Shown: positions 1 through 34,757 of the stretch, piece by piece | Layout: each line of letters begins with the position of its first letter | How positions within the stretch are numbered: the first letter of the stretch is position 1 | Origin: Candidatus Micrarchaeum sp. | GTDB taxonomy: Archaea > Micrarchaeota > Micrarchaeia > CABMEP01 | DNA length: 64,000 nucleotides | Direction of reading: 5' to 3' | Assembly: GCA_020723065.1 (NCBI GenBank) | Contig: DYJP01000005.1 | Span: 2,668-66,667, forward strand | The notes under the pieces: generated by a model | Seen by the model: only the letters and a program-made list of their open reading frames with translations | The model's database searches: none | What the model was told of the DNA's origin: nothing | Position numbers and translations under genes: made by a program

Positions 1-81
1 CTTTAAGCATGCAGCCACTATAGAATCCGCTATGCTGTCCTTCACTGGTGCTAATAGGTCCATAATTCTATTGGGCAGCAT
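1..81 (-). CDS. 5' end (N-terminus) of an unidentified gene continuing beyond the window start (MLPNRIMDLLAPVKDSIADSIVAACLK...)
   Basis: ATG at 79-81 (revcomp) opens a minus-strand frame that runs to position 1 with no stop. No recognisable motifs. Confidence 0.25.
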   Translation of the reverse strand, partial: MLPNRIMDLLAPVKDSIADSIVAACLK

Positions 82-182
82 ATCTTTATAAGATTTAATG
101 GGCAAAAGAAGTATAGAAAATACAAGAAAGCGAAAGCGTCTCAACATGTTTTAATAATATGTACAATATAATATTCACACGC

Positions 183-255
183 GGGGTCGTGGGCTAACCT
201 GGTACGCTACCAGCTTCGGGAGTTGGTGATTCGAGTTCAAATCTCGACGGCCCCA
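183..255 (+). tRNA. tRNA-Pro (anticodon CGG)
   Basis: Acceptor GGGGTCG/CGGCCCC with one G-U pair. Anticodon stem CCAGC/GTTGG, loop TTCGGGA (U33, anticodon CGG, R37). T-arm TCGAG-TTCAAAT-CTCGA. Discriminator A. CCA not encoded. Confidence 0.8.
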
Positions 256-885
256 TATTACTAATTTTATTCAATCACTATTACAAAAGTATATTTACAT
301 CGAATATTAGAATAAAATATGAAAATTGATTTTAAAAAGAAATAACATCTCGTTAATAAATTAAAAAGCGGAATACGTAATAATGCAAATATTATATTAG
401 AAGATATAATTGTAAAGAAAATAAATCAAGGAAACCAAAATGGTTGGAATCTAGAGCGTACGCGTCACAATATCGATCGAACAAAGCAGAATATACATGC
501 ATCCAAGCATTGAATACGATCCCAGAAAGATTTCGCTTGAATATATAGTGTTCCATGAGCTCAAGCACAATTAGACACGGTCTTCAACTTATCCTGGAGC
601 ATAATTTGACCTAAAGGATTAACCTAATTCAAAATCCATAATCTAAACATATTCTAGTATGTACTGATTTTTGCAAAGCTCACTATCACAGAAAAAGATT
701 TGATCAAAGAATCTATAAGGAAAGTTTAACATTGCCTTATAGATATATTACGGATTATTGCAACGTTCAAACAAAACAATGCAAATCTTGGCGGTACATA
801 AATATTTCCATGAAGGTCTGATAAAGAATTTGAAAATAGAAGGCAGGATAAGCTTTAAAGTGAAAAAATATTGCAAAGCAAGCAA

Positions 886-3800
886 TCAGTCAAAAGACCT
901 GTCGTCGACTACCTCATCGATCTCAAAATAATTTGGCTCTGAGGGAAGCTCTAGCTTTTCAAATTTGCCTATAGGGATCAGCGGAGCATTCGCAAAATCA
1001 ATAACCTGCCCTTCCTTCTCCTGAAAATAGATATAGTCTCCCTTCGCACCTATCACCGTAACTCCATTAGCCCGGATCCAGTCTCCTATGGTCTTATATG
1101 CCATATTAAGGAATTCTCTAAAGGAAGCCACACCTTCCGGCGCAATATGGTAGACTGCATTGAACACTCTGCTCCTATGTGTAGCAAGGCTGAACTGGTT
1201 GAATGCGAATATCAGATTCTCAGCAGATATCTTTTCTGTAAGACTCCTATTCTCATCTTTTGACAGAATATCAATAATTGACTTTTCTATCTCTCTAAAT
1301 TTTATGAACTGTGCCCTGAACCTATCGAGCTTCTTCTTGGAATCCTCTTCAAGAAGATCAACATACATATCTGGCATCTCATTAAGGGAGATTAAGTCAG
1401 AATTCTCCTTGCTGAAAAGATCTACGAACGAGAATATAAGCTGAGAATCCTCCCTCCTTGTCGGCTCCGATCTAATAAACGCCTTTATCTTCCTACTGGA
1501 AGACTTATCCTTTACCTTTAAAGTGGTATAAAAAGACCTAAAACTGTCCTTCAACATGAGATAGGCGTGCTTATATTTTAGTGTTAGCAATTTGTTCTCC
1601 ATCGAATCAAACTCTGAATTCAATGAGGCATTATACGCACCGTTGCTCTTGAAAACTGTGATGTAATAGCGCTGAAAAAGCATAAGCATTTCAGACATAC
1701 TCATATTTATCTGGTGCATGAACTCTTGTAAGACATCCTTCTCCCTTCGGTATAAATAATAATCGACGTGGATGTGCCTTCTCATGAAATATTTTGGATA
1801 TTGAAGCTGGGCGAAACGCACAACTGGATCTTTGTGAAGCTTCGAGAAATAATCGTGCCACTGGGGGGTATTCGGAAAGAATGTTCCGGAAACCAGAAGT
1901 TCTAACGGGATATATGCGATTCGCACGTTTCTAAAAACACCCTTGGAAGGAAGTTGTATTATCCCTTCGTCCTCAAGTTGCCTCTTCATGTAGGTATCGA
2001 GACGTTTCTTGAATATCTGCCTCTCATCCTCCCTCATCTTCTCTTTGTATCCGTAATTGAGCTGAGCATGCCTTGACTGCCACTCCCGGATATGGAATAT
2101 TTCTGTGATTGAATTTGGAGAGAATGCAACATCCGTAATCGGAATGTGAGGGACCATTCCGGCAGCACTATATATCGTTTTAAGCAAAGGTTCGAAAAGA
2201 AACATCTCTCTAAGGGGATCGATATCACAAATTGAATATCTGTCAAGAGTCTGTTCCGCAACCGCGTCCCCATTTATCGCTTTTATCTCAAGCTCCTTGA
2301 GCTCATCGTGAGTTGCTATCTTGTGGAACTCTCCAGACAGAATAGTCGGAAAGCCCATCCTGCGCTTTTCTCTGTATATAAAATTAGAGACGTCCGCAAG
2401 CTTGTGGGTCATTCCGAACGCATTTGTCTTCAAATATGGAAACCAGACTGCACCTAGCCTGTATGTGTCGATCACTTCCTGCGCAACCATAGAAATCTTC
2501 TGGTAAAATCCTCTTCTCCAAATTCTCGGCTCCTTCTTTTTCACTGCCAGATCAAAAGAAGTGGTCCGATTCTCTCTTGCACCATCTCTAATGTTACTCA
2601 AATCGTAAGGGATTACATGACCCACTATCCTGTACGGCTGCTCATGCTTGAGAAAATTGAGCACAGAGCCTATGAGCTCATATTCATTATCATAATGAAG
2701 AACGATAAAGCCATTTAAATTCTTCTCATGCTCCCTTGAATTAGCGGTTGACGGATTATTAAGCTTGAAATAGAGCCTTACCTCAGAACCATCCTCCCTT
2801 GTTATATGCATCATCACCCTCGATATTTGCTCCTTGTACCTATCCTGGCTGAGATCTACATCTCCAGACTGCTTTGACTTGAACAGAATCTTGGACGTCA
2901 ACTCCGATATCTTTTCCTTTGTCTCTAAAGGATCCAGCTTGGAATTGGGATTGATGAGTTCTGCCTGAAGCTCGGAAATCTGACTCAAGATTTTCCTTTC
3001 CTCTTCAGTCTTCCACATCGGCTTTTCGATATCCAGGAAACAAGTTGACAGGGATTTCCAGCATTCGTACGAAATTCTGTTCTTATGCACTATAAGACCA
3101 TTTGGCTCCGTCTTTCCATGCTCAAATGGATTGCTCGAACTCTTAGATTCGAGCACTATCTCATATGCCTTTGTATCGTCATTATACCTGAGTGAATTCT
3201 TTGAATCTAACTGCTTAACTATCTCTCTCAATGAAAAGAAAAGAGAGGAAAGTTTTTTCATATTCTCTTCTATTCTTTTGAACTTCTCACTATCTTTAAG
3301 GAACATTTTGTAAACAATAGGAAATTTCTTGGAAACAAACTTAAACTGACTCGGATCGTTAAATGCACTCATGCTGTATTTTTCTCTATAAAATTTCCTT
3401 ATCTGGTTAAATGCCCTAGTCTTTTTTGCAGCCATAGACGGATCGTAATTTTCGCAAGAATAAAAAGATGAGACTATATCTGAAGCCTTCTCGTAAAGCT
3501 GACCAAGAGTTTCAAACCTGGAAAATAAATATTCAAGGCTTTCATTAATGGTCACTTCCCTGTACATCCACTCCAATTCCCGACGTATAACTTTATTCAG
3601 ATTCTTTATTTGAAAACCGTATTTCTTAAGCTTGTTTAAGATTTTCTTGTCACAAGGTACTTCCGCATTGAGAACAAAGAGATGGGAATCTTCAACTTGA
3701 AATGAAATATTCGGAAAGTTTACTTCCAACTCCTTTTTTTTGTCCCGGAATCTTAATGAAATGTACGCTGTAATTTTATACTTTGCAACATTCTCATCTT

Positions 3801-4179
3801 TATGCACCCGTTTAAGCACGGATACGAATTGCTCATAGCTATAAAATACTGGTGTTGCAACCTTCACAGGATGCCTGACATAGACTGTGATAGTCTTGGG
3901 GTCATCCAAAGACCATTTTCTCAAAGACAAAATAAGCCGGTTCTCCCTGGATTCATATTCCTCAAAGCCCAGGTGACTCACAAACCAGAATGGCTTGATG
4001 CGGCCGAGCGATTCCCGTACAGCTTGCTCCTTTGTCTTCGAAATCTCATCAAAAATATAATTGTCCGCCTTCGAATCCATTTGCGGAACTTCGAAAGGCT
4101 CTTCATCTATTATTTCATCTTTAAAATTAATTGTATGATTAGCTAGGACTGCATCTTGCAATTTATGTCGTATTTGCAT
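886..4179 (-). CDS. Large (1097 aa) soluble hypothetical protein of unknown family. Weak acidic motifs: LDIEKP, HYDNEYEL, KTNAFG, YSICDIDPL, PHIPITD.
   Basis: Uninterrupted 3.3-kb ORF with an ATG start. No P-loop, no Cys clusters, not hydrophobic. Bracketed by tRNA-Pro and tRNA-Leu. The motifs faintly resemble family-B exonuclease DxE/NxxFD and polymerase or primase DxD, but are not diagnostic. Confidence 0.6.
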   Translation of the reverse strand: MQIRHKLQDAVLANHTINFKDEIIDEEPFEVPQMDSKADNYIFDEISKTKEQAVRESLGRIKPFWFVSHLGFEEYESRENRLILSLRKWSLDDPKTITVYVRHPVKVATPVFYSYEQFVSVLKRVHKDENVAKYKITAYISLRFRDKKKELEVNFPNISFQVEDSHLFVLNAEVPCDKKILNKLKKYGFQIKNLNKVIRRELEWMYREVTINESLEYLFSRFETLGQLYEKASDIVSSFYSCENYDPSMAAKKTRAFNQIRKFYREKYSMSAFNDPSQFKFVSKKFPIVYKMFLKDSEKFKRIEENMKKLSSLFFSLREIVKQLDSKNSLRYNDDTKAYEIVLESKSSSNPFEHGKTEPNGLIVHKNRISYECWKSLSTCFLDIEKPMWKTEEERKILSQISELQAELINPNSKLDPLETKEKISELTSKILFKSKQSGDVDLSQDRYKEQISRVMMHITREDGSEVRLYFKLNNPSTANSREHEKNLNGFIVLHYDNEYELIGSVLNFLKHEQPYRIVGHVIPYDLSNIRDGARENRTTSFDLAVKKKEPRIWRRGFYQKISMVAQEVIDTYRLGAVWFPYLKTNAFGMTHKLADVSNFIYREKRRMGFPTILSGEFHKIATHDELKELEIKAINGDAVAEQTLDRYSICDIDPLREMFLFEPLLKTIYSAAGMVPHIPITDVAFSPNSITEIFHIREWQSRHAQLNYGYKEKMREDERQIFKKRLDTYMKRQLEDEGIIQLPSKGVFRNVRIAYIPLELLVSGTFFPNTPQWHDYFSKLHKDPVVRFAQLQYPKYFMRRHIHVDYYLYRREKDVLQEFMHQINMSMSEMLMLFQRYYITVFKSNGAYNASLNSEFDSMENKLLTLKYKHAYLMLKDSFRSFYTTLKVKDKSSSRKIKAFIRSEPTRREDSQLIFSFVDLFSKENSDLISLNEMPDMYVDLLEEDSKKKLDRFRAQFIKFREIEKSIIDILSKDENRSLTEKISAENLIFAFNQFSLATHRSRVFNAVYHIAPEGVASFREFLNMAYKTIGDWIRANGVTVIGAKGDYIYFQEKEGQVIDFANAPLIPIGKFEKLELPSEPNYFEIDEVVDDRSFD

Positions 4180-4293
4180 ATCTATTAAAGGTTTTTCTTG
4201 TATTTAAACATTTCTAAATAAAAAATTAAAGATTGAAAAAAATCAGCGGATATAAAAGATATTTAATAATTTACAGACATATGTAATTGAAAA

Positions 4294-4379
4294 GCAGGGG
4301 TGACAGAGCTAGGTCAATTGTGCAAGGCTCAGAACCTTGTGCCTTAGTGGCTGCGTGGGTTCAAATCCCACCTCCTGCA
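4294..4379 (+). tRNA. tRNA-Leu (anticodon CAG), long variable arm
   Basis: Acceptor GCAGGGG/CTCCTGC. Anticodon stem CAAGG/CCTTG, loop CTCAGAA. Long variable arm. T-arm GTGGG-TTCAAAT-CCCAC. Discriminator A. Confidence 0.8.
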
Positions 4380-4403
4380 CTTTCTGCTTGACAAAGTGAT
4401 AAA

Positions 4404-5480
4404 ATGGCTTTTGAAGAAATGCTAACCCTAAACTTATTCGGAAATACTGTCTACGACTACCTAGTGTCCTTGGGAATATTCATACTGACATGGATAGCAA
4501 TATTCGCGATAAAGAACATCCTGCTAATCCAACTCAAGAAAATAGCGAAAAAGACAAAGACAACCCTGGACGACAAGATAATTGAATACATACAGGGAGT
4601 CAGCATAGTTTTCTATTTCATATGGTCGATATACGTAAGCACTTCCTTCCTAATCCTACCCAAGATAGTGCAAACTGTAATATACTATTCTCTGCTTCTC
4701 ACCATAGGTTACTATATAACCAAGCTTATTAACAAAATAGTCGAATACTTCTTCGGAAAAATGGAAAATGAGCAGACGAAGAAATTCCAGGAAAGCGACT
4801 TCTCCCAACTTCACCTAATGAGGGATATAGTCAAAACAGTGATCTGGTTCCTTACGATACTAATATTTCTGTCCAACCTAGGATTTGACATAACCACTAT
4901 GATAGCAGGATTGGGAATCGGAGGCATTGCAATAGCGTTCGCTTTGCAGAGCATACTTACAGACATATTTGCTTCGTTCTCGATATATTTCGACAAGCCA
5001 TTCAAGAAAGGAGACTTTATAGTCGTCGGAAATGAAAGCGGAAATATAAAAAAGATAGGGCTCAAAACAACCAGGATGGAATCTCTAGCTGGAGAGGAGA
5101 TCATCATTTCCAACAAAATGCTAGTAGATTCCAACATCCATAATTACAAAAAAATGAACTACAGAAGGTCCATATTTAGCATAGGAGTTGACTACGATAC
5201 CCCGGTAGAAAAGCTAGAAAAAATTCCAGGATACATAAAAGACATAATAGATAGCGTAAAGAAAGATGGCAAACATATGGCCAAAACTGAAAGAATACAT
5301 TTCAAATCTTTCGGGGATTTCGCGCTCATGTACGAGATAATGTATACCATAAATTCAAGCGACTACAATGTTTATATGGACATCCAGCAAGACATAAATC
5401 TCGGAATAGTCAGAAAATTCAAGAAAGAAAAGATAAAAATGGCGTATCCGACACAGACAGTCTACATTAAAAGAGAATAA
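4404..5480 (+). CDS. Small-conductance mechanosensitive channel (MscS family)
   Basis: Three N-terminal TM helices followed by the MscS beta-domain motif (GDFIVVGNESGNIKKIGLKTTRMESLAGEEIIISN). Confidence 0.75.
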   Translation: MAFEEMLTLNLFGNTVYDYLVSLGIFILTWIAIFAIKNILLIQLKKIAKKTKTTLDDKIIEYIQGVSIVFYFIWSIYVSTSFLILPKIVQTVIYYSLLLTIGYYITKLINKIVEYFFGKMENEQTKKFQESDFSQLHLMRDIVKTVIWFLTILIFLSNLGFDITTMIAGLGIGGIAIAFALQSILTDIFASFSIYFDKPFKKGDFIVVGNESGNIKKIGLKTTRMESLAGEEIIISNKMLVDSNIHNYKKMNYRRSIFSIGVDYDTPVEKLEKIPGYIKDIIDSVKKDGKHMAKTERIHFKSFGDFALMYEIMYTINSSDYNVYMDIQQDINLGIVRKFKKEKIKMAYPTQTVYIKRE

Positions 5481-16308: not shown

Positions 16309-19170
16309 ATGACAAAAACAGAAATAGAAATACCGGAATACAAATTCCAGAGATTATTCACCAAGAATGGCGTACACCCGTTCGATATGGTGATGTGGGA
16401 GAAGAGAGACTCAGTTATAATGGACTCGAAAGGAAAGAAGATCTTCGAGCAGAAGGATGTCGAAATACCTACATCGTGGTCCCAGACCGCAACAAACATT
16501 GCAGTCTCCAAATATTTCAGAGGGAAGATAGGAACTCCCCAGAGAGAGACTAGCGTAAAACAAATGATAAGCAGGGTGGTTGACACAATAGTCGAATGGG
16601 GAAAGAAAGACGGCTACTTTAATTCTGCTGAAGAAGTGGCGACGTTCAACGATGAACTTACTTACATACTACTTAACCAGATGGCTGCGTTCAACAGCCC
16701 GGTCTGGTTTAACTTTGGAATAGAGAAAAGACCACAAGGATCCGCATGCTTCATCAACTCCGTGGAGGACGACATGAAATCAATACTCACGCTCGCAGTT
16801 ACAGAAGGAATGCTGTTCAAGTACGGTTCCGGAGCGGGATCAAACCTGTCTGTATTGAGATCGTCCAGAGAATATTTATCTAGCGGAGGAAGAGCCTCTG
16901 GCCCGGTCTCTTTCATGAAGGGATACGACGCATTCGCAGGCGTAATTAAGTCCGGAGGAAAGACTAGGAGGGCAGCAAAGATGGTCATCCTTAATATAGA
17001 CCATCCGGACATTAAGGAATTCATCTGGTGCAAGGCGAAGGAAGAGAAAAAGGCCAAGGAGCTAGTCAAGCTCGGATATGACGGCTCACTGGACGGAGAT
17101 GTTTATGCGAACATATTCTTCCAGAACGCTAACAATTCAGTCAGAGTGAACGACGAATTCATGACTGCGGTCAAGCAGGGCAAGGAATTTTCCACAAAAT
17201 ACGTTTCTGATGGGAAAGAATGTGAAAAGTACGATGCAAAGACGCTTCTCAACGAAATCGCTCAGGCCACCTGGGAATGCGGAGACCCCGGAATGCAGTA
17301 CGACACCACGATAAATAAGTGGCACACCTGCAAAGCAAGCGGAAGGATAAACGCATCCAACCCGTGCTCTGAATTCATGTTCCTTGACGATTCTGCGTGC
17401 AACCTCGCTTCGATCAACCTCATGAAATTCCTTGATACAGAGACTGGTAGATTTGATATTGAGAGATTCAAGCACACTATCGCATTACTGATAACTGCAC
17501 AGGAAATAATCGTAGGAAACGCCTCCTATCCGACAGCGGCAATAGAAAGAAACTCGATTGACTTCAGACCGCTCGGATTGGGATACGCGAACCTCGGGGC
17601 GCTGCTCATGGCCACAGGTTTGCCTTATGACAGCGACGAAGGCAGGAACTACGCGGCGGCTATCACTTCCGTGATGACAGGATACGCGTATTACATCTCG
17701 GCTTCGCTGGCGAAGAGGATGGGGCCGTTCAAACAGTACCACATGAACAAGGATTCCATGATGGAAGTGATGAACATGCACCTCAACGCTACTAAGGAAA
17801 TAGGCGAGAAGGGGGTGCCCCACTACCTGCACAAGGCGGCGGTGGAGGTCTGGCAGTCCGCGTTCTCGCAGGGATCGCTATACGGATACAGGAACGCGCA
17901 GGTCTCCGTGCTTGCGCCGACCGGAACGATAGGGTTCCTCATGGACTGTGACACTACGGGAATAGAGCCGGATATGGCTCTTGTAAAGTACAAATGGCTC
18001 GTGGGAGGAGGAATGATGAAAATCGTCAACTCCACGATTCCGATAGCATTGAAGAAGCTCGGATACGACCAGACTCAGACCGACGCGATACTCAAGTACA
18101 TAGACGACAACGACACGATAGAGGGCGCGCCTCACATAAAGCAGGAGCACCTTCCAGTGTTCGACTGCGCGTTCAAGTCTGCGAAAGGAAGCAGATTCAT
18201 TAGTTATCTTGGTCACATCAAGATGATGGCTGCAGTCCAGCCGTTCATTTCCGGAGCGATTTCAAAGACTGTTAACATGCCGAAAGAATCCACAACTGAA
18301 GACATCTACAACGCATACCTGACATCCTGGGAGTTGGGCCTCAAGGCAATCGCTATATACAGAGACGGATCCAAGGGAGTCCAGCCCGTCACGCTCACCA
18401 AAGAGGTGAAGGAGGTAGATAAGATCGAAACTGCGACCAAGTTGGAGATCAAATCTGAAGTGAGAGAGGTTATCAAGGAAGTAATAGTCAACAAGCCTAT
18501 GAGGCGGAAGCTTCCCGATGAAAGGAAATCATTGACACACAAGTTCAGTATTTCCGGACACGAAGGATACATCACCGTCGGACTGTACGAGAACGGACAG
18601 CCTGGAGAGATTTTCATCACCATGTCGAAGGAAGGAAGCTCCATATCGGGAATGATGGACGCGTTCTCAACGTCAATCTCCATCGCCTTGCAATACGGAG
18701 TTCCGGTAAAAACCTTGGTGAAAAAGTTCGCGCACATGCGATTTGAACCCTCCGGATACACTTCACACCCGAACATAAGGTATGCGAAGTCTCTGATGGA
18801 CTACATATTCAGGTGGATGGCCTTGAAGTTTCTATCAAGAGAGGAACAGATGGAAGTTGGCTTAAATCTTGACATAGAAGAGACCATAACGAGCTATGTA
18901 GAGAAAGAAACCGCTCCGGAACCGCAAACTGTAAAGACAATCCCAACGGTTGAAAATAAGGCACTGGGATCTCCACCAGGAGACAATGTAACCACCATAG
19001 GGAGCGAAGCTCCAGTCGCGATAGAAATGAAAGCCGAAACCAAGAACAGCAAGATTGCATTCCAGAACAGCGAGGATTCTCCAATGTGCCACTTCTGCGG
19101 CGCGATAATGGTAAGGAACGGGACATGTTACAAGTGCCTCAACTGCGGAGCTACAAGCGGATGCAGCTGA
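16309..19170 (+). CDS. nrdJ: Class II (adenosylcobalamin-dependent) ribonucleotide reductase with C-terminal zinc ribbon
   Basis: 953 aa. RNR ten-strand barrel motifs (NPCSEF, active-site Cys). C-terminal CHFCG...CYKCLNCG. AGGTGA Shine-Dalgarno motif. Confidence 0.85.
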   Translation: MTKTEIEIPEYKFQRLFTKNGVHPFDMVMWEKRDSVIMDSKGKKIFEQKDVEIPTSWSQTATNIAVSKYFRGKIGTPQRETSVKQMISRVVDTIVEWGKKDGYFNSAEEVATFNDELTYILLNQMAAFNSPVWFNFGIEKRPQGSACFINSVEDDMKSILTLAVTEGMLFKYGSGAGSNLSVLRSSREYLSSGGRASGPVSFMKGYDAFAGVIKSGGKTRRAAKMVILNIDHPDIKEFIWCKAKEEKKAKELVKLGYDGSLDGDVYANIFFQNANNSVRVNDEFMTAVKQGKEFSTKYVSDGKECEKYDAKTLLNEIAQATWECGDPGMQYDTTINKWHTCKASGRINASNPCSEFMFLDDSACNLASINLMKFLDTETGRFDIERFKHTIALLITAQEIIVGNASYPTAAIERNSIDFRPLGLGYANLGALLMATGLPYDSDEGRNYAAAITSVMTGYAYYISASLAKRMGPFKQYHMNKDSMMEVMNMHLNATKEIGEKGVPHYLHKAAVEVWQSAFSQGSLYGYRNAQVSVLAPTGTIGFLMDCDTTGIEPDMALVKYKWLVGGGMMKIVNSTIPIALKKLGYDQTQTDAILKYIDDNDTIEGAPHIKQEHLPVFDCAFKSAKGSRFISYLGHIKMMAAVQPFISGAISKTVNMPKESTTEDIYNAYLTSWELGLKAIAIYRDGSKGVQPVTLTKEVKEVDKIETATKLEIKSEVREVIKEVIVNKPMRRKLPDERKSLTHKFSISGHEGYITVGLYENGQPGEIFITMSKEGSSISGMMDAFSTSISIALQYGVPVKTLVKKFAHMRFEPSGYTSHPNIRYAKSLMDYIFRWMALKFLSREEQMEVGLNLDIEETITSYVEKETAPEPQTVKTIPTVENKALGSPPGDNVTTIGSEAPVAIEMKAETKNSKIAFQNSEDSPMCHFCGAIMVRNGTCYKCLNCGATSGCS

Positions 19171-21475: not shown

Positions 21476-23467
21476 TCACCTTTTTACATCCGAATTCGAA
21501 CCATTCATCTTTTTAATGAACTTGGAAACGAACTCCCCCATCCCCCCGACTGAAACATACTGGATGTTCGACCTTAGGTGCGGCTGAAGGTACACCTTCT
21601 CCATCATGAACCTCGAGTCCACCAGTATGCTTGCGCACCAGTCCCTTTCGTTCCTGATTCCCCTACCTATCGCCTGGTTCGTCCTTATCATTGCGGGCAT
21701 TATCGCAGACATCTTCCATGCGGTTTCATAGTCGAACTTGTCCCTGAGGTATCTCTGGTACGCCTTCTGGGAGGCGTTATAAGTCGAGATAGGAAAGCCT
21801 GCCACCACAATCGCTTTGAATGGATTGAACCTGAAGTCGATGCCTTCGTAGTAGGAGCCGCCCATTATCCCATGAAGTATGAACGGAACATTCTCTTTTG
21901 CGTATTTCTCTATCCTATCTTTCCTTTCCTTCCTGTGCTTATTACTCTCTCCCTGGATTTCCACTTCATGTTTAAAATCTGGAAACTCCTCTTCATTCTT
22001 TAAAAGCTCCATGAACTTGTATGAAGGATAGTAGACTGCCATTGAATTCGGATAGACTGCAGAGGCGGTGTCTCTTATAACTTTCTTAAAAGAATCGATG
22101 TTATCCTTATCGTTCCTATCCTTCTTCATTGAGGATGCTCCAGCACATATTACAACCGGCTGCAACAATGGATCGAACGGGCTCGGATAAGTTTCCTTGT
22201 CGAGTTTGAGCACCCTTTTCTCATCCAGACCAAGCTGCTTGATCAATAAATCTTTCATCGGAAGCGTCCCGCTCATAAGTATCGCAGAATGAGCGGAATG
22301 AATCACTCCCTTTGCTATTATCGCTGGATCAAACGGAACCGCCCTAAGCCTGAAATTCTTGTAGTCTTCTGAATCGAAAAACAGCCCGATGGTTTTGTCC
22401 CCGGAAAGAAATGCTTCTGCAGAGCATAATACGCCGGACAGCTGCATCAGATCGTCAACGGAGATTTTCTGCTCTGGACGATTCTCCTTCTGGCTGAAAA
22501 GAAACTGCACGTATTCACTTATACGAAGAAGTGAATCCGTAACCGAAGCCTCTTTCCAGGAAAGGAGCGCCTTAACTTCAGAAGAAGATAGCTCAATCTC
22601 CCCTCCGAGATAGCTGCTCTTCCGTGTAAGAATCTTTACATAAGGCCTGAGGCTTGTCTTGATGTACGAAGCTACAGACTCTATCGAATCAAGCACCTTG
22701 TCCTCCTTGCATATCTCCCTTAAATCTGAAAGCGCTGCAAGGCTCTCCTTGATCACTTCGGAATCAACCTGGTATGTGTTTAGATCGAGTATCCTATCCG
22801 CAAGATTGTGAGCCTCGTCTATGATGATGTCGCAGTTCCCGAGGCCGACGTCCAGGTATTGAAAGAATATTTTACGTATTTCCCTATCGAATAGGTAAGA
22901 GTAATCGCAGACTATGACGTCTGCATCTTTTGAAGCAATCAACGCTGCATAGTGCGCGCAATAGTCCTTAGCGATGCTAAGCTTGACTGCGGTTTCTGCG
23001 TCTATCGGATCGGAAAGCAGAAGATCCGAAGCCGGAAAGTTCTGCCTGCGGTAATCGCAGGACATACTTATCACGTCGCAGTTGACAACCTTGCTCACGC
23101 CTTTGGCCTTAAGAAGACACATCTTGCCCTTCCCCACTTTGTCTATGGCCTTTATCTTTTTTATGCCCAACGCGGCAAGCGCATCAGCTCTTTTTTCGTT
23201 CATCTCTCTGATTTCCTGTATCGCTTGAATATGGTGTGTATCTCGGGTGGTAAGAAATATGACTTTCCTTCCAGCAGGTATAGATTCCTGGAGAATGGAC
23301 AATGCGGCTGCAGTCTTGCCTATTCCTGTTGGAGCATTGGCTAGGAGTATCTTTCCTGTTCTTACGGTCTCCAAAGCATCCGAATAGAACTCGAATTGTC
23401 CAAGACTCATGTCGTCTTTGGGAAATATTGAACCCTGCGGAGAACTTATTCTCTTATTTTCGTACAT
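21476..23467 (-). CDS. xpd: XPD/Rad3-family (DinG-like) SF2 helicase with FeS domain
   Basis: Walker A ANAPTGIGKT. DEAH box IIDEAHNL. Four Cys between motifs I and II. XPD signature ADVIVCDYSYLFD. C-terminal Q/R motifs. Confidence 0.8.
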   Translation of the reverse strand: MYENKRISSPQGSIFPKDDMSLGQFEFYSDALETVRTGKILLANAPTGIGKTAAALSILQESIPAGRKVIFLTTRDTHHIQAIQEIREMNEKRADALAALGIKKIKAIDKVGKGKMCLLKAKGVSKVVNCDVISMSCDYRRQNFPASDLLLSDPIDAETAVKLSIAKDYCAHYAALIASKDADVIVCDYSYLFDREIRKIFFQYLDVGLGNCDIIIDEAHNLADRILDLNTYQVDSEVIKESLAALSDLREICKEDKVLDSIESVASYIKTSLRPYVKILTRKSSYLGGEIELSSSEVKALLSWKEASVTDSLLRISEYVQFLFSQKENRPEQKISVDDLMQLSGVLCSAEAFLSGDKTIGLFFDSEDYKNFRLRAVPFDPAIIAKGVIHSAHSAILMSGTLPMKDLLIKQLGLDEKRVLKLDKETYPSPFDPLLQPVVICAGASSMKKDRNDKDNIDSFKKVIRDTASAVYPNSMAVYYPSYKFMELLKNEEEFPDFKHEVEIQGESNKHRKERKDRIEKYAKENVPFILHGIMGGSYYEGIDFRFNPFKAIVVAGFPISTYNASQKAYQRYLRDKFDYETAWKMSAIMPAMIRTNQAIGRGIRNERDWCASILVDSRFMMEKVYLQPHLRSNIQYVSVGGMGEFVSKFIKKMNGSNSDVKR

Positions 23468-23515
23468 CTGCCCACGCCATTTTCTGATGAATCCAAATAA
23501 TGGATGTTAAAGTAT

Positions 23516-26311
23516 TTAATGGAACTCCCAGAATCTCTTTGTCCTGATGAAGGTCTTCTGCGCGTTCAACAGCGCTGTATAAAATTCCTCATCGGACTTG
23601 TGTGTCCTACCAAGTATTCCCGGCGCCTTTGACGGACCGACCCCGTAAGTCGAAAGGGTGATGACTCCCCACTTTCCTGAAGCGCTTACCACTGCGGCGG
23701 AACGGTCAAGCCTTTCTTTGTACACCTTCTCCTCTTTTGTTAACCGTTTCTTCTTCAGTAATTTGCGGACATCCTCAACGGAAATGGATTTAGGCAAAGG
23801 AGCCACCATGGTACTTCCGCACTTCGGGCACTTGACCTTGTCCTCTAATGCTCCTATGAACGATATCCAATCCTTTCCGCAGTGCATGCAGTACAATACG
23901 ACCGATTTGCCGAGCAACTTAGCCTTGAACGCCTTAATTATTTCCGAAGTGGGCTCGATCGGAGCAATCAATTCAGAACCATGATTCCTGACAAGCGCCC
24001 TCACTGCAACGGGAGAAAGCTGCTTCACATGGAAAGCGTGGACAGAAATTTCTTTTGTCCGTATCCCATTCAGTATCGCCTTCGCATTTTTTATGTCGTA
24101 ATAAGAAGCGTAGACATCCCTCAATGTCTCATTATAAACTGGAGTGCCTACGAAATTCTGTATGAACTTTTCCGAAATTCTCGGAGTTTCCTTGAAAAGA
24201 TAGAACATCTTACCTATGTGAATGAACTTGAACCTGAAAAGCTTGTGCTTGGAGATGTGCAACTCAAGGTCTTTTTCTATCGCTCCGTTCGAGATGTCGA
24301 GAAGGTGATTCTTTATCGAAATTGCGTCAGCCTTTCTTGGAAGTATGAATGCAATCCTGTACGCATCTACGAGAGTTTGAACCGAAGACCCGTATTCCCT
24401 CGCAAGCCTTTCAGCAAGGACCGCGGATAATGTCCTGTTTCCATTCAATCCGCCAAGAACATGAATGACTGCCACATCATTCCAGGCCTCTATGAGTATC
24501 CCTTTGTCAGTGGGAATGAATTCCTTAAATTCCAACAAGTCAGAGATTGCATCCTTCTCCAGCTCCATTCTCTTGCTAAGCAAGTTTATCTCCTTTTCCT
24601 TTCCTCCGTTTTCAAAATCTCCCTTGTGCTCTCTTGCATAATCAGAAATCTCCCTTCTTATCCTTCCAACTGTCTGCGCGACCTCGTAGCTCGTAGGAAT
24701 CTCTTCCCCTTCCCAGTCGGGAATCGCCGCGCTTATGTCATCCGCAGCCTCCACTACGACTATCTTCTTGTCATTGTCGATGTCCAGGATCCTCCATGGG
24801 AGCCCTTTAGTTATGAACATCTCGTTGTTCTCGAAGAATGAGACGAAATTCTCATCCAATGTGGAAATTATCTTGTTCGTTGCCGCATCCTTCACCAGAT
24901 ATTTCTGGACTGAAGGGATCGTGGAAAGGTGCTCGTAGTAATACATTCGGGTGGACACCATCTTATGTAGTGTGCCATGCTCTGTCTTCTTCAGAAGCCT
25001 CTTGTCCTCCATGAAATTCACTACTGAAAGGAACGCCTCGGCGTCCAGCATGGAATAAAGATAAGCCCTTTTCACTATATTATAAATCTCGGAAATTGTC
25101 ATTTCCCTATCGAAGTCCATAAGAATTCCGGCGATCTGGTGAGCAAGAACGTCCAGCGCGTTAGAGCAAATCTGCTGCTCCTCAAGCACTCCTTCCTTTA
25201 TAAGCCTCAGCAGCGCGTGCGCCTCGACTATGTCGTCGGGATCCGCGCAGATGATCGTTCCTGTTGAAGTTCCCTTGACAGTATGACCACTTCTTCCCAC
25301 TCTTTGGACAAGCCTCGACACCTGCCTCGGAGACATATACTGAATTACATGTGAAATATCCCCTATATCTATTCCTAACTCTAGAGAGGAAGTTGCAACC
25401 AATGCATCAAGATTCCCTCCCTTGAAATCATCCTCCAGCTGTATTCTCACTTCTTTTGAAAGGGAACCGTGATGAACCGCTATCTTGGGATCCAGCTTCA
25501 TCATCCTTGAACCGAGGATCTCTGCAATTGAACGGGTGTTTACGAATATCAATGTCTTGTTGTCCTTTATTATCCGCTGGATTTCCTTCAACCTCGCGAC
25601 CGCAGCAATGTCAACCTGCAGCTCGTTTGCAGCGGAATCATAGGACTTGCTGGCCTGAGGATAAATAATGTCAAATTTCATTGACCTAAGGTATTTCAGG
25701 TCCACTATCTCGCAAGACCTATATCCACACAAGAATTTGGAAACCTGGATTGGATCAGCAACAGTTGCACTTAAACCGATTCTCTGGAATTCTCCCGCCT
25801 TTTCTGATAGCCTTTCCAATGCCACGGAAAGCTGAGCACCTCTTTTGTTGTCTATGAGTTCATGAAGCTCGTCCACCACCACATACTTCACGTTCTTCAA
25901 ATGCTGGCCCATGACCTTTGCAGGAAGAATTGCCTGCAATGTCTCAGGCGTAGTGATCAGAAGCTGCGGAGGCTTCTTCGCCTGCATGGACCGTTCTGTG
26001 GTAGTCGTATCACCATGCCTTACGGCAATGGTTATGCCCATCTCATTCGCCCATTCTTTGAGTCTTTTCATCATGTCCCGGTTGAGCGCACGAAGAGGCG
26101 TAATATAAATTGCCGCAATACCTGGGAGCTTGTTGTCTTTTATCTTTTCCATGACAGGAATTGCCGCAGTCTCTGTTTTTCCGGAACCAGTCGGAGCTAT
26201 CACTAAAACATTTCTTCCTTCTTCCACTAATGGGATTCCTTTCTTCTGAACATCTGTGAGTTCTCCAAATTTCCTTGTTAAAAACGAGGACATACGAGTA
26301 AAACTAGACAA
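23516..26311 (-). CDS. lhr: Lhr/MrfA-like DEXH helicase with C-terminal 4-Cys zinc ribbon
   Basis: 931 aa. Lhr-type N-terminus (DVQKKGIPLVEEGRNVLVIAPTGSGKTE), DELH box, HRVGRSGR motif. C-terminal CMHCG...CPKCGS as in DUF1998/MrfA. Confidence 0.7.
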   Translation of the reverse strand: MSSFTRMSSFLTRKFGELTDVQKKGIPLVEEGRNVLVIAPTGSGKTETAAIPVMEKIKDNKLPGIAAIYITPLRALNRDMMKRLKEWANEMGITIAVRHGDTTTTERSMQAKKPPQLLITTPETLQAILPAKVMGQHLKNVKYVVVDELHELIDNKRGAQLSVALERLSEKAGEFQRIGLSATVADPIQVSKFLCGYRSCEIVDLKYLRSMKFDIIYPQASKSYDSAANELQVDIAAVARLKEIQRIIKDNKTLIFVNTRSIAEILGSRMMKLDPKIAVHHGSLSKEVRIQLEDDFKGGNLDALVATSSLELGIDIGDISHVIQYMSPRQVSRLVQRVGRSGHTVKGTSTGTIICADPDDIVEAHALLRLIKEGVLEEQQICSNALDVLAHQIAGILMDFDREMTISEIYNIVKRAYLYSMLDAEAFLSVVNFMEDKRLLKKTEHGTLHKMVSTRMYYYEHLSTIPSVQKYLVKDAATNKIISTLDENFVSFFENNEMFITKGLPWRILDIDNDKKIVVVEAADDISAAIPDWEGEEIPTSYEVAQTVGRIRREISDYAREHKGDFENGGKEKEINLLSKRMELEKDAISDLLEFKEFIPTDKGILIEAWNDVAVIHVLGGLNGNRTLSAVLAERLAREYGSSVQTLVDAYRIAFILPRKADAISIKNHLLDISNGAIEKDLELHISKHKLFRFKFIHIGKMFYLFKETPRISEKFIQNFVGTPVYNETLRDVYASYYDIKNAKAILNGIRTKEISVHAFHVKQLSPVAVRALVRNHGSELIAPIEPTSEIIKAFKAKLLGKSVVLYCMHCGKDWISFIGALEDKVKCPKCGSTMVAPLPKSISVEDVRKLLKKKRLTKEEKVYKERLDRSAAVVSASGKWGVITLSTYGVGPSKAPGILGRTHKSDEEFYTALLNAQKTFIRTKRFWEFH

Positions 26312-34535: not shown

Positions 34536-34654
34536 AATTACACCTTAAATATCATTCATTCCGATCGTGAATATAATTTATTCTGATTTTTCACATTTGT
34601 TTTTTTTTTTCATTTTCATTTTTTTTAATTAAACTTTTTCCTGAAAAGTTTGAA

Positions 34655-34740
34655 TGCAGGAGGTGGGATTTGAACCCACGCAGCCACTACGGCACCAACC
34701 CCTCAAGCTGGCGCATTTGACCTAACTCTGCCACCCCTGC
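34655..34740 (-). tRNA. tRNA-Leu (anticodon GAG)
   Basis: Acceptor GCAGGGG/CTCCTGC. Anticodon loop TTGAGGG. Long variable arm. T-arm GTGGG-TTCAAAT-CCCAC. Discriminator A. Confidence 0.8.
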
Positions 34741-34757
34741 AGGATCAATGTGAATTC

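What the first reader, a model, noticed from the sequence alone, without database searches (positions are those of the whole stretch)
183..4379. 1097-aa orphan protein precisely bracketed by tRNA-Pro(CGG) and tRNA-Leu(CAG), with a 630-bp gene-free spacer
tRNA 3' ends are classical integration targets. The only content between the two tRNAs is one giant soluble ORF on the minus strand, plus an unusually long non-coding stretch (256-885) in an otherwise compact genome. The protein has no P-loop and no Zn clusters. It does have ordered acidic motifs: LDIEKP, HYDNEYEL, KTNAFG, YSICDID, PHIPITD. These weakly recall a DEDD-type exonuclease followed by a DxD nucleotidyltransferase, as in a family-B or primase-polymerase-like enzyme. 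No integrase or direct repeat of the tRNA end was found. It may therefore be a remnant island or a lineage-specific replication or repair enzyme.
Basis: partly seen in the sequence, partly recalled or inferred. Interest (0 to 1): 0.65.

Follow-up and report, generated by a model that had tools for sequence, protein, structure and literature searches.

The report
Thumbless DNA polymerase B relative, DPANN archaea
The large "orphan" gene between two tRNA genes is not an inserted island but a core gene of tiny DPANN archaea: an unannotated, very divergent relative of family B DNA polymerases that keeps its proofreading nuclease site intact, while its polymerase half has lost most catalytic motifs and the whole thumb domain.

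Summary
In detail: tRNA-Pro(CGG) 183-255, a 1097-aa ORF on the minus strand (886-4179) and tRNA-Leu(CAG) 4294-4380.

The island reading is refuted. The order MscS / tRNA-Leu / gene / tRNA-Pro / ArgRS is kept in nine Micrarchaeia loci at 51-72% protein identity, and more loosely in a 27%-identical relative. There is no integrase, no att repeat, no composition shift and no viral homologue.

The 630-bp "spacer" is a decayed pseudogene of a lineage-specific HExxH ORFan that is still intact in the closest relative.

The protein belongs to an unannotated DPANN family (Micrarchaeota, Woesearchaeota, Pacearchaeota; about 87 cluster representatives). A confident AlphaFold model (pLDDT 89) matches only family B DNA polymerases.

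All DEDDy exonuclease residues are invariant in 63 of 63 members. In the polymerase half:
- motif A has no Asp (YIPLE);
- motif B is lost;
- motif C keeps only the second Asp (KGD1048Y);
- the chain ends about 45 residues after motif C, so there is no KxY motif and no thumb;
- about 90-140 extra helical residues lie between motifs A and B.

Most likely it is a 3'-5' exonuclease for replication or repair on a polymerase-derived DNA-binding scaffold. A non-canonical polymerase activity is not excluded. I rate it a new variant of a known kind.

The parts
1..63 (-). 5' end of the arginyl-tRNA synthetase gene (it runs off the window). This is the conserved downstream neighbour of the locus.
   Evidence: Translation is MDLLAPVKDSIADSIVAACLK, against MDLLLPVKDSIADSIAAACANAKFE for the ArgRS of L001. 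ArgRS follows tRNA-Pro in all Micrarchaeia loci.
183..255 (+). tRNA-Pro(CGG)
   Evidence: ARAGORN. Rfam RF00005, 51.4 bits. The same tRNA abuts the 3' end of the gene in all relatives.
319..850 (+). Decayed pseudogene of a 235-aa HExxH ORFan. It starts at ATG 319 in frame +1 and continues in frame +2 from about 470. HELKH is at 554-568, followed by an in-frame TAG at 572-574. Many further stops follow. This accounts for the 630-bp 'spacer'.
   Evidence: tblastn of L001:13319-14026(-) against the window gives two frame-shifted segments of 32% identity, E 4e-13 and 2e-10, and 6e-9 in the larger database. The intact protein has no homologue other than itself among 5.8e9 proteins and no Pfam family.
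886..4179 (-). The 1097-aa gene: a DPANN-specific family B DNA polymerase-like protein (group 1 of the family).
   Evidence: ORF; homologues; AF2 model with pLDDT 89.2 and pTM 0.87; Foldseek hits are all PolB.
4003..4179 (-). Residues 1-59: poorly conserved, partly disordered N-terminal tail.
   Evidence: pLDDT below 50 for residues 1-41. Column identity 0.27.
3055..4002 (-). Residues 60-375: N-terminal domain, with a helical insertion (213-325) specific to the long members.
   Evidence: Secondary structure of the model. Members of about 820 aa have only about 170 residues before Exo I.
2080..3054 (-). Residues 376-700: DEDDy 3'-5' exonuclease domain.
   Evidence: PF03104 hits in 6 of 11 close members. 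Profile against PDB matches Pfu / Deep Vent residues 184-375 at E 2e-9. hhalign probability 90-94%.
3019..3036 (-). Exo I, LDIEKP (D383, E385). The family signature is DIEKP[LMF][WF]K.
   Evidence: D383 and E385 are invariant in 63 of 63 sequences.
2599..2622 (-). Exo II, GHVIPYDL (D526).
   Evidence: D526 is invariant in 63 of 63. It aligns to Pfu NGDSFDFPYL.
2218..2238 (-). Exo III, YSICDID (Y648, D652).
   Evidence: Y648 and D652 are invariant in 63 of 63. They align to Pfu YSMEDA.
940..2079 (-). Residues 701-1080: remodelled polymerase-like half (palm, finger remnants and a helical insertion; no thumb).
   Evidence: hhalign chain: canonical PolB to group 2 at 98.3%, and group 2 to group 1 at 99.5%. 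Spacing table.
1888..1941 (-). Residues 747-764: motif-A-like strand and helix, VRIAYIPLELLVS. No Asp at the catalytic position. E760 is kept in at least 90% of group 1.
   Evidence: Pfu GLWENIVYLDFRALYPS aligns with GVFRNVRIAYIPLELLVSG. Conservation.
1225..1647 (-). Residues about 845-985: helical insertion specific to group 1, between motif A and motif B. The boundaries are approximate.
   Evidence: Group 1 against group 2 hhalign shows about 90-140 unmatched residues here. Motif A to motif C is 245-290 aa, against 138 in Pfu and 124-196 in group 2. No similarity to the group 2 thumb (probability 0.8%).
1147..1200 (-). Residues 994-1011: motif-B-equivalent helix, NQFSLATHRSRVFNAVYH. The K, N, S and G of KxxxNSxYG are not kept.
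   Evidence: Mapping through group 2. F1006 and Y1010 are at least 90% conserved in group 1.
1021..1059 (-). Residues 1041-1053: motif-C-like beta hairpin, TVIGAKGDYIYFQ. K1046 stands in place of the first Asp. D1048 corresponds to the second (metal-binding) Asp of DTD.
   Evidence: Pfu VLYIDTDGLY aligns with P0074 IIHQKGPYLY, which aligns with window VIGAKGDYIY. D1048 and Y1049 are invariant in 25 of 25 group 1 sequences.
946..984 (-). Residues 1066-1078: last palm strand, PLIPIGKFEKLEL. The protein ends shortly after it.
   Evidence: Strand 1068-1078 in the model. R/K1071 is at least 90% conserved. Only 25-75 residues follow motif C in group 1, against 232 in Pfu.
889..939 (-). Residues 1081-1097: disordered acidic tail ending ...DEVVDDRSFD.
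   Evidence: pLDDT below 50. Family tails are enriched in a terminal LF. The group 2 tail aligns to the Pfu PIP box.
4294..4380 (+). tRNA-Leu(CAG), upstream of and divergent from the gene.
   Evidence: ARAGORN. Rfam, 52.1 bits. Present at the same place in L001, L002, L007, L009-L012, L014 and L021.

Best explanation
The ORF is a vertically inherited core gene of Micrarchaeia. It belongs to a previously unannotated family of family-B-DNA-polymerase derivatives, seen so far only in DPANN archaea.

Shown:
- It has the PolB fold.
- Its DEDDy 3'-5' exonuclease site is complete and invariant.
- Its polymerase half has lost the motif A aspartate, motif B, the first motif C aspartate, the KxY segment and the whole thumb.
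- It has gained a helical insertion of about 90-140 residues.

Inferred:
- It works chiefly as a DNA 3'-end exonuclease. That could mean proofreading in trans, or removal of mismatched or damaged 3' ends during replication and repair.
- The polymerase-derived palm and fingers would serve as a module that binds primer-template DNA. This module is still under purifying selection: E760, D806 and D1048 are conserved in group 1.
- It probably acts alongside PolD as the bulk replicase.

The two flanking tRNAs are ancestral neighbours, not integration scars. The 630-bp gap is a dead lineage-specific gene.
For: Core gene:
- The same order (MscS, tRNA-Leu(cag), gene, tRNA-Pro(cgg), ArgRS) occurs in L001, L002, L007, L009-L012 and L014, at 51-72% identity.
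- tRNA-Pro and ArgRS without a detectable tRNA-Leu occur in L004-L006, L018 and L019.
- tRNA-Leu upstream, with tRNA-Pro and ArgRS 7.8 kb downstream, occurs in the 27%-identical L021.
- In another lineage the gene sits among aIF5B and S6e genes.

PolB fold:
- 254 PDB hits at E<1e-3, and the top 50 are all PolB. BFVD gives the same picture.

Exonuclease:
- D383, E385, D526, Y648 and D652 are invariant in 63 of 63 sequences at 18-73% identity.
- PF03104 hits, and a profile match to the Pfu exonuclease domain.

Polymerase half:
- PF00136 never hits.
- Motif mapping rests on two strong profile alignments: 98.3% (E 2e-14) and 99.5% (E 4e-22).
- Only 25-75 residues follow motif C.
- The model shows one strand after the motif C hairpin and then a disordered tail.

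Constraint on the polymerase half:
- Column identity is 0.52-0.59 there, against 0.68 in the exonuclease domain.
- D806, D1048 and Y1049 are invariant, and E760 is kept in at least 90% of 25 group 1 sequences.

PolD presence (indirect): PMC12680538 reports that only Baldrarchaeia and Aenigmatarchaeota lack DP2 while keeping DP1.
Against: No biochemical data exist. The conserved acidic trio in the palm (E760, D806, D1048) could mean that a nucleotidyl-transfer site survives. There is a precedent: archaeal PolB2/Dpo2, with one Asp in motif C, was predicted to be dead and proved active (PMC7544198, PMC8764526).

I could not read the model coordinates, so the spatial clustering of these residues and the position of the insertion are unknown.

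I could not test whether the same genomes encode PolD or a canonical PolB. The role of partner to another replicase is therefore an inference.

Gene neighbourhoods give no consistent link to replication or repair. There are only scattered gyrase, RNR/NrdR and PD-(D/E)XK nuclease neighbours.
Confidence: 0.6

Rival explanations
1. It is still an active DNA polymerase with a non-canonical active site. Glu760 would replace the motif A Asp, Asp1048 would be the motif C metal ligand, and Asp806 might be a third carboxylate. The helical insertion would take over the duplex-gripping role of the missing thumb. It would act as a repair, gap-filling or even replicative enzyme of DPANN archaea.
For: D806, D1048 and Y1049 are invariant and E760 is kept in at least 90% of 25 group 1 sequences that share only 22-53% identity with the window protein. 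D1048 maps onto the catalytic second Asp of DTD. The polymerase half is under purifying selection. Precedents: PolB2/Dpo2 and primer-independent PolBs work with one motif C Asp (PMC7544198; PMC8764526).
Against: No Asp at motif A. Motif B residues K, N, S and G are absent, and within Micrarchaeia the motif B position is variable (FNAVYH, FMALYH, FLALYG). The steric-gate Tyr of SLYPS is absent. The KxY segment and thumb are absent. The sister group 2 has lost both palm acids but keeps the exonuclease. This shows that the exonuclease, not the polymerase, is the constrained function of the family.
Confidence: 0.25
2. It is a catalytically dead scaffold, comparable to the C-terminal half of Pol epsilon. 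Its only role would be to hold replisome or repair partners together.
For: Most of the polymerase motifs are degenerate. There is a disordered acidic tail with a terminal aromatic residue.
Against: All five DEDDy residues are invariant across 63 very divergent sequences. That pattern is expected for an active nuclease. In known dead modules (Pol epsilon C-terminal half, the PolB2 exonuclease domain) these residues have drifted (PMC7544198).
Confidence: 0.08
3. It is the cargo or remnant of a mobile element integrated at a tRNA gene. It would also cover a pipolin-like or casposon-like self-replicating element.
For: The gene lies between two tRNA genes. The DNA next to the 3' end of tRNA-Pro is variable: an ORFan gene in L001, its remnant in the window, nothing in L002 and L004, and a 7.8-kb pilus-like operon in L021.
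Against: The gene itself is at the same place in every relative examined. No integrase is among the neighbours. No repeat of either tRNA end is present. GC content is like that of the surroundings. There is no homologue in IMG/VR, GenBank phages, PHROGs or PADLOC.
Confidence: 0.02

Closest known systems
Canonical archaeal family B DNA polymerases (PolB1/PolB3, e.g. Pyrococcus furiosus Pol, PDB 3a2f/2jgu)
   Same: The overall fold matches. The exonuclease domain has Exo I, II and III in the same order. The motif A strand and helix and the motif C hairpin have the same topology.
   Different: Sequence identity is about 8-12%. PF00136 does not hit. DxxSLYPS is replaced by YIPLELLVS, KxxxNSxYG is lost, and DTD is replaced by KGD. 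About 90-140 extra residues lie between motifs A and B. KxY, the thumb and a clear PIP box are absent. The N-terminal region is about 240 aa longer.
Archaeal PolB2 / Dpo2 (the 'inactivated' PolB group of Rogozin et al. 2008; shown to act as a translesion extender, PMC8764526)
   Same: A divergent archaeal PolB paralogue with only one Asp left in motif C. It is a precedent showing that motif loss does not prove inactivity.
   Different: PolB2 has a degenerate exonuclease: Exo I is not conserved and Exo III is missing (PMC7544198). It keeps a thumb. Here the situation is reversed: the exonuclease is intact and the thumb is missing.
C-terminal inactivated PolB module of eukaryotic Pol epsilon
   Same: A PolB-derived module kept under selection after losing polymerase motifs, presumably for binding or scaffolding.
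   Different: In Pol epsilon C both the exonuclease and the polymerase sites are dead and the module is fused to an active PolB (PMC7544198, PMC2669801). Here the protein stands alone and its exonuclease site is intact.
Group 2 of the same DPANN family (e.g. P0074, P0088 from Woesearchaeota)
   Same: The exonuclease signature and the post-motif-A helices (LQY..F, DYY) are shared. Both groups are found only in DPANN and are annotated as hypothetical proteins.
   Different: Group 2 keeps canonical spacing, the KxY region, the thumb and a C-terminal PIP-like QGxLF. It has replaced the acidic residues of both motif A and motif C.
Stand-alone DEDD proofreading exonucleases (DnaQ / epsilon; PolB-exo-like proteins PF10108 and PF13482)
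   Same: The proposed activity: a 3'-5' exonuclease that is not coupled to a polymerase site in the same polypeptide.
   Different: Those are single-domain proteins of about 200-300 aa. This protein retains the whole N-terminal domain and a palm and fingers remnant of a PolB. It does not hit those Pfam models.

Membership tests
Family B DNA polymerase superfamily (fold level) | N-terminal, exonuclease and palm/fingers architecture superimposable on solved PolBs | tested here: met
   Model with pLDDT 89.2 and pTM 0.87. Foldseek against PDB gives 254 hits at E<1e-3, and the top 50 are all PolB (ASFV 1.9e-10, RB69, Pol epsilon, Pol alpha, P. calidifontis TMt 0.47, E. coli Pol II). BFVD top 50: every match that carries a name is a family B DNA polymerase; 13 of the 50 carry no name in the tables at hand. 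TM-scores are modest (0.2-0.47).
Family B DNA polymerase superfamily | DEDDy exonuclease motifs Exo I (DxE), Exo II (Nx2-3F/YD) and Exo III (Yx3D) | tested here: met
   D383/E385, D526 and Y648/D652 are invariant in 63 of 63. They align to the Pfu motifs.
Catalytically canonical family B DNA polymerase | Motif A DxxSLYPS with the metal-binding Asp and the steric-gate Tyr | tested here: not met
   YLDFRALYPS aligns to YIPLELLVSG. D405 falls on I757 to L759 depending on the alignment. The nearest acidic residue is E760. There is no Tyr at the gate position.
Catalytically canonical family B DNA polymerase | Motif B KxxxNSxYG (dNTP binding) | tested here: not met
   The equivalent, mapped through group 2, is about residues 998-1011 (RSRVFNAVYH). 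The group 1 consensus is F.A[KR]YG. K, N and S are not kept.
Catalytically canonical family B DNA polymerase | Motif C (Y)xDTDS with two Asp | tested here: not met
   KGD1048Y: the first Asp is replaced by Lys and the second Asp is retained and invariant in group 1. One Asp is also the state in PolB2 and in primer-independent PolBs, so this feature alone does not prove inactivity.
Catalytically canonical family B DNA polymerase | KxY segment and C-terminal thumb domain after the palm | tested here: not met
   49 residues follow D1048 in the window protein and 25-75 in group 1, against 232 in Pfu and 165-305 in group 2. The model has a single strand and then a disordered tail.
Catalytically canonical family B DNA polymerase | Match to Pfam PF00136 (DNA_pol_B) | tested here: not met
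   No hit in the window protein, in the 11 close members or in 9 distant members. Only PF03104 (exonuclease) hits, and weakly.
Catalytically canonical family B DNA polymerase | Templated DNA synthesis | not testable with these tools
   Needs primer-extension assays.
Archaeal PolB2 (Dpo2-type) | Degenerate Exo I and missing Exo III, with a group-specific D(K/R) motif (PMC7544198) | tested here: not met
   Exo I and Exo III are intact and invariant here. No direct sequence comparison with a PolB2 was made.
Archaeal PolB groups B4-B10 (Kazlauskas et al. 2020) | Membership by profile or phylogeny; all of these groups were described with recognisable motifs A, B and C | not tested
   Their HMMs were not available. 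The paper's text and the supplements held here do not mention Micrarchaeota. The lack of motifs A and B makes membership unlikely.
tRNA-integrated genomic island or integrative element | Integrase or recombinase gene in the element | tested here: not met
   None among the called neighbours with Pfam annotations in L001-L008. None in the L021 insert. The only ORF of 100 aa or more lying entirely between the two tRNAs, apart from the gene itself, is a 114-aa shadow frame on the opposite strand inside it (3802-4146).
tRNA-integrated genomic island or integrative element | Direct repeat of the tRNA 3' end (attL/attR) | tested here: not met
   No second copy of the tRNA-Pro 3' end at up to 3 mismatches anywhere in the 64-kb window, and no 16-mer of the 3' half of either tRNA at up to 2 mismatches in the first 6-8 kb. 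No relevant repeats.
tRNA-integrated genomic island or integrative element | Patchy presence among related genomes, and atypical composition | tested here: not met
   Present at the same site in all relatives examined. GC is 0.37-0.43, like the neighbouring genes.
Viral or plasmid PolB (protein-primed, pipolin, casposon) | Homologues in viral or mobile-element collections | tested here: not met
   IMG/VR scan with the family signature: none. tblastn against 50,697 GenBank phage and archaeal virus records: none. PHROGs and PADLOC: none.

The most novel reading that the evidence does not exclude
Group 1 of this family (including the window protein) would be a working DNA polymerase of a new architectural type within family B. 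It would be thumbless, with a Glu/Asp (E760/D1048, perhaps D806) active site and an inserted helical domain that grips DNA in place of the thumb. It would then be a polymerase of DPANN archaea that current annotation pipelines miss entirely.
Probability: 0.22. Interest if true: 0.85.

Novelty: new variant of a known kind. Interest (0 to 1): 0.55.

Why it matters
DPANN archaea have minimal genomes, yet they keep a protein of 800-1100 aa that every source naming a member calls 'hypothetical' (one fragment is called a 3'-5' exonuclease). It is a polymerase-derived protein in which selection has clearly shifted from the polymerase site to the proofreading nuclease.

The family offers a natural series:
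- group 2 keeps the thumb and a PIP-like tail but has lost the palm acidic residues;
- group 1 has no thumb and keeps one catalytic Asp.

This series shows how replicative polymerases are turned into accessory factors, a process otherwise known mainly from Pol epsilon and PolB2.

It also affects genome-based inventories of archaeal replication and repair genes, which would not count this protein. If the protein turned out to polymerise DNA without a thumb and without the motif A aspartate, it would change the accepted minimal requirements for family B catalysis.

Tried and rejected
1. Single-sequence Pfam, NCBIfam and PDB searches of the window protein gave only noise: an EF-hand at 20 bits and GST at E 0.007. 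I rejected these as chance.
2. A profile of the 11 close homologues against PDB found nothing. The 63-sequence profile was needed.
3. The first AF2 model, built from 11 sequences, was mediocre (pLDDT 68.7). It was replaced by the 63-sequence model.
4. Direct hhalign of group 1 against Pfu or against a diverse PolB alignment gave three mutually inconsistent placements of motifs B and C:
   - motif B on residues 863-880;
   - motif B on residues 998-1011;
   - motif C deleted and the C-terminal hairpin aligned to the thumb hairpin.
   The first and third are low-confidence extensions. They were rejected in favour of the two-step mapping through group 2.
5. The global hhalign mode failed.
6. Circular permutation (thumb moved ahead of motif C): the insertion shows no similarity to the group 2 thumb (probability 0.8%). 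Not supported.
7. Searching with Pfu Pol to find canonical PolBs of Micrarchaeia returned only Thermococcales in the listed hits. Co-occurrence with other polymerases remains untested.
8. Literature searches for the polymerase complement of Micrarchaeota gave only indirect statements.
10. The bacterial promoter and terminator scan was at chance level and is irrelevant for an archaeon.
11. A search for canonical PIP boxes found none at the termini, apart from one chance-like match.

Full report
**1. The observation.**
ARAGORN finds tRNA-Pro(cgg) at 183-255 and tRNA-Leu(cag) at 4294-4380, both on the + strand. Rfam confirms both and finds nothing else in 1-5000. The only long ORF between them is 886-4179 on the minus strand, 1097 aa. 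The stretch 256-885 has no ORF above 58 aa. The protein has no Walker A motif, no CxxC and only five cysteines. The window itself is archaeal. Its neighbours include an archaeal histone, EF-1beta, an Elp3-like radical SAM protein, a thermosome, class II RNR, and XPD and Lhr helicases. No other polymerase gene is among the ten large ORFs scanned with Pfam (16.3-60.7 kb of the window), though ORFs under about 430 aa were not scanned.

**2. Core gene, not an island.**
The protein has ten close homologues (39-80% identity, the most identical a 670-aa fragment). All named ones come from Micrarchaeota or Micrarchaeia MAGs. A scan of one genome per GTDB species finds it in six Micrarchaeia species.

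In every locus with enough flank, the order is: MscS channel, tRNA-Leu(cag), gene, tRNA-Pro(cgg), ArgRS.
- This holds for L001 (72% identity), and for L002, L009, L010, L011, L012 and L014 (54-56%), and for L007, which is the same sequence as the window.
- In L004-L006, L018 and L019 (about 52%), tRNA-Pro and ArgRS are there but no tRNA-Leu is detected.
- Even L021, whose protein is only 27% identical, has tRNA-Leu(cag) directly upstream. There, tRNA-Pro(cgg) and ArgRS lie 7.8 kb downstream. The intervening DNA encodes a type-IV-pilus-like operon (T2SSE, T2SSF) and no integrase.

The left end of the window holds the start of ArgRS.

Other evidence against integration:
- There is no second copy of the 3' end of either tRNA.
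- There is no compositional step.
- No integrase is among the annotated neighbours.
- The family is absent from IMG/VR, GenBank phage and archaeal virus genomes, PHROGs and PADLOC.

**3. The spacer.**
In L001 the space between the gene and tRNA-Pro holds a 235-aa gene with an HExxH motif. tblastn of that protein against the window aligns it to 319-850 on the + strand. The match is in two frames with many in-frame stops (E 4e-13 and 2e-10; 6e-9 against all fetched loci). The remnant HELKH lies at 554-568 and is followed by TAG. In L002 and L004 the tRNA-Pro follows the gene by 33 and 6 bp.

The 'unusually long non-coding stretch' is therefore a dead gene. The intact protein is a singleton in a 5.8-billion-protein collection and has no Pfam family. 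The position next to the 3' end of tRNA-Pro is variable between lineages, but I found no signature of site-specific integration.

**4. The protein belongs to the family B polymerase superfamily.**
The window protein alone hits nothing. Six of its eleven close relatives weakly hit PF03104, the PolB exonuclease domain. A full HMMER profile search of 1.84 billion cluster representatives finds 87 relatives at E<=1e-3. Named members are 'hypothetical proteins' of Pacearchaeota, Woesearchaeota and Micrarchaeota. Distant members again hit only PF03104 and never PF00136.

A 63-sequence profile matches the exonuclease domain of Pfu, Deep Vent and KOD polymerases in the PDB (E 2e-9 to 1e-5). With the 63-sequence alignment AlphaFold2 gives a confident model (pLDDT 89.2, pTM 0.87). 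Foldseek then returns 254 PDB chains at E<1e-3. The top 50 are all family B DNA polymerases: ASFV, RB69, Pol epsilon, Pol alpha, Pol delta, HSV, P. calidifontis PolB3 and E. coli Pol II. Among the matches in the viral structure library, every one that carries a name is a family B DNA polymerase. TM-scores are modest (0.2-0.47), as expected for a multi-domain protein with extra segments.

**5. The exonuclease is intact.**
Across 63 sequences that share as little as 18% identity, only eight columns are invariant. Five of them are the DEDDy catalytic residues:
- D383 and E385 (Exo I, family signature DIEKP[LMF][WF]K);
- D526 (Exo II, GHVIPYDL);
- Y648 and D652 (Exo III, YSICDID).

The others are D571, L594 and K620. 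hhalign places these residues on the Pfu motifs.

**6. The polymerase half is remodelled.**
I first checked that my recalled Pfu Pol sequence is identical to PDB 3a2f_A. I then built a diverse canonical alignment: four Thermococcales enzymes, a halovirus PolB, two gp43 proteins and E. coli Pol II.

The family splits into two architectures.
- Group 2 consists of 11 full-length distant members, including the one named example, P0088, from a Woesearchaeota MAG. It aligns to canonical PolBs over 583 columns (probability 98.3%, E 2e-14). The alignment covers motif A, motif B, motif C, the following palm strand, the thumb and even the C-terminal PIP box (KEVQGSLF against Pfu KTRQVGLT). Its motif A and motif C acidic residues are replaced, for example IDTDGLY becoming QKGPYLY.
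- Group 1 includes the window protein. From motif A to its C-terminus it aligns to group 2 from motif A to the motif C hairpin (probability 99.5%, E 4e-22).

This two-step mapping gives the following for the window protein.
- Motif A is Y756-I-P-L-E760, with no Asp. The Pfu D405 falls on I757 to L759 depending on the alignment.
- The motif B equivalent is about residues 998-1011 (RSRVFNAVYH). It lacks the K, N, S and G of KxxxNSxYG and varies even within Micrarchaeia.
- Motif C is K1046-G-D1048-Y. The first Asp of DTD has become Lys. The second, metal-binding Asp is retained.
- Only 49 residues follow D1048 (25-75 in group 1, against 232 in Pfu). The model shows one strand (1068-1078) and then a disordered acidic tail. 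The KxY segment and the thumb are therefore absent.
- Motif A to motif C spans 245-290 residues, against 138 in Pfu. The excess is about 90-140 helical residues, roughly 845-985.
- This insertion shows no similarity to the group 2 thumb (probability 0.8%). I found no support for a circular permutation.

Direct alignments of group 1 to canonical PolBs gave conflicting placements beyond motif A and were set aside.

**7. Constraint.**
Within Micrarchaeia the polymerase-like half is almost as conserved as the N-terminal domain. Mean column identity is 0.52-0.59, against 0.68 for the exonuclease domain. In 25 group 1 sequences (22-53% identity to the window protein), D806, D1048 and Y1049 are invariant. 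E760, Y756, F1006, Y1010 and R1071 are kept in at least 90%. The palm remnant is therefore functional in some sense. Whether it is catalytic or only binds DNA or metal cannot be decided here.

**8. Context and tails.**
No conserved operon partner exists. In one lineage of about 820-aa members the gene lies among aIF5B, an EF-1alpha-like GTPase and S6e genes, with a PD-(D/E)XK nuclease a few kb away. gyrA/gyrB lie 3-6 kb away in three loci, and an AddA-like helicase-nuclease in one. ATP-cone, NrdR or RNR genes recur nearby. None of this was tested statistically.

Family C-termini are acidic and often end in (Q/S)GxLF. 'LF' occurs in the last six residues of 11 of 63 members, against 1.6 expected (p = 4e-7). 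In group 2 this tail aligns to the PCNA-binding peptide of Pfu Pol. The window protein ends ...DEVVDDRSFD.

**9. Mechanism.**
Shown: PolB fold, a complete DEDDy site, loss of most polymerase determinants and of the thumb, and vertical inheritance.

Inferred: the protein acts as a 3'-5' exonuclease on primer ends, using the polymerase-derived module to bind DNA, alongside another replicase. That replicase is probably PolD. A 2025 survey states that only Baldrarchaeia and Aenigmatarchaeota lack DP2 while keeping DP1 (PMC12680538). I could not verify PolD in these genomes.

The main rival is a non-canonical polymerase that uses E760 and D1048. Its precedent is PolB2/Dpo2, which was predicted dead and found active (PMC7544198, PMC8764526). 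Against it stand the missing motif B, steric gate, KxY and thumb. In addition, the sister group has lost the palm acidic residues but not the exonuclease.

**10. Novelty.**
The systematic survey of PolB diversity defines archaeal groups B1-B10, all with recognisable motifs A to C. Neither its text nor the supplements held here mention Micrarchaeota. I found no paper that describes this family. All database names are 'hypothetical protein', apart from one '3'-5' exonuclease, partial'. I rate it a new variant of a known kind.

Noticed in passing
window 319-850 (+); L001:13319-14026 (-): Decayed pseudogene of a 235-aa HExxH ORFan, lying directly after the 3' end of tRNA-Pro. The intact copy in L001 has no homologue other than itself among 5.8e9 proteins and no Pfam family.
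   Followed up: yes
L021:13357-21129: In a 27%-identical relative, the same site (between the gene and tRNA-Pro) holds a 7.8-kb type-IV-pilus-like operon (T2SSE ATPase, two T2SSF proteins, small ORFs). The DNA next to the 3' end of tRNA-Pro is thus variable between lineages, but no integrase or att repeat is present.
   Followed up: partly
Family members P0071-P0096 (e.g. L015:10001-12913, L016:10001-12721): A sister clade (group 2; the one named member comes from a Woesearchaeota MAG) keeps the full PolB architecture, including the thumb and a C-terminal PIP-like QGxLF. The acidic residues of motif A and motif C are replaced (GPY, GNY, GQW), while all DEDDy residues are intact. This looks like a polymerase-dead, possibly clamp-tethered exonuclease.
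   Followed up: partly
C-termini of family members; window 889-939 (-): Disordered acidic tails that often end in (Q/S)GxLF. 'LF' occurs in the last 6 residues of 11 of 63 members against 1.6 expected (p = 4e-7). The window protein ends in SFD. This may be a peptide that binds PCNA or another hub protein.
   Followed up: partly
window 16309-19170 (+); L015:12910-13215; L017:15636-19020; L001:1-128: Genes for dNTP supply (class II RNR with a TSCPD domain, ATP-cone and NrdR-like proteins) recur within 0-12 kb of family genes in unrelated DPANN lineages. Not tested against chance.
   Followed up: no
L023:1131-6763; L033:1666-4152; L055:254-2317; L034:11922-14846; L036:2731-3546: DNA gyrase A/B genes lie 3-6 kb from the family gene in three loci; the gyrA of L023 carries an intein. 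One locus has an AddA-like UvrD/PD-(D/E)XK helicase-nuclease, and five loci have a Cas4-like PD-(D/E)XK nuclease.
   Followed up: no
L004-L006, L018, L019 (upstream of the gene): ARAGORN finds no tRNA-Leu(cag) upstream of the gene in the 52%-identical lineage, although a 315-bp gap between MscS and the gene is present. The tRNA may have been lost or moved, or it may contain an intron that the search missed.
   Followed up: no
window 21476-26311 (-), 42368-43897 (+): A cluster of DNA-repair helicase genes (XPD-like DEAD_2, an Lhr-type large helicase, and another DEAD/ResIII helicase) lies within the same 64-kb window.
   Followed up: no
window 34654-34741 (-): A third tRNA gene, tRNA-Leu(gag).
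   Followed up: no
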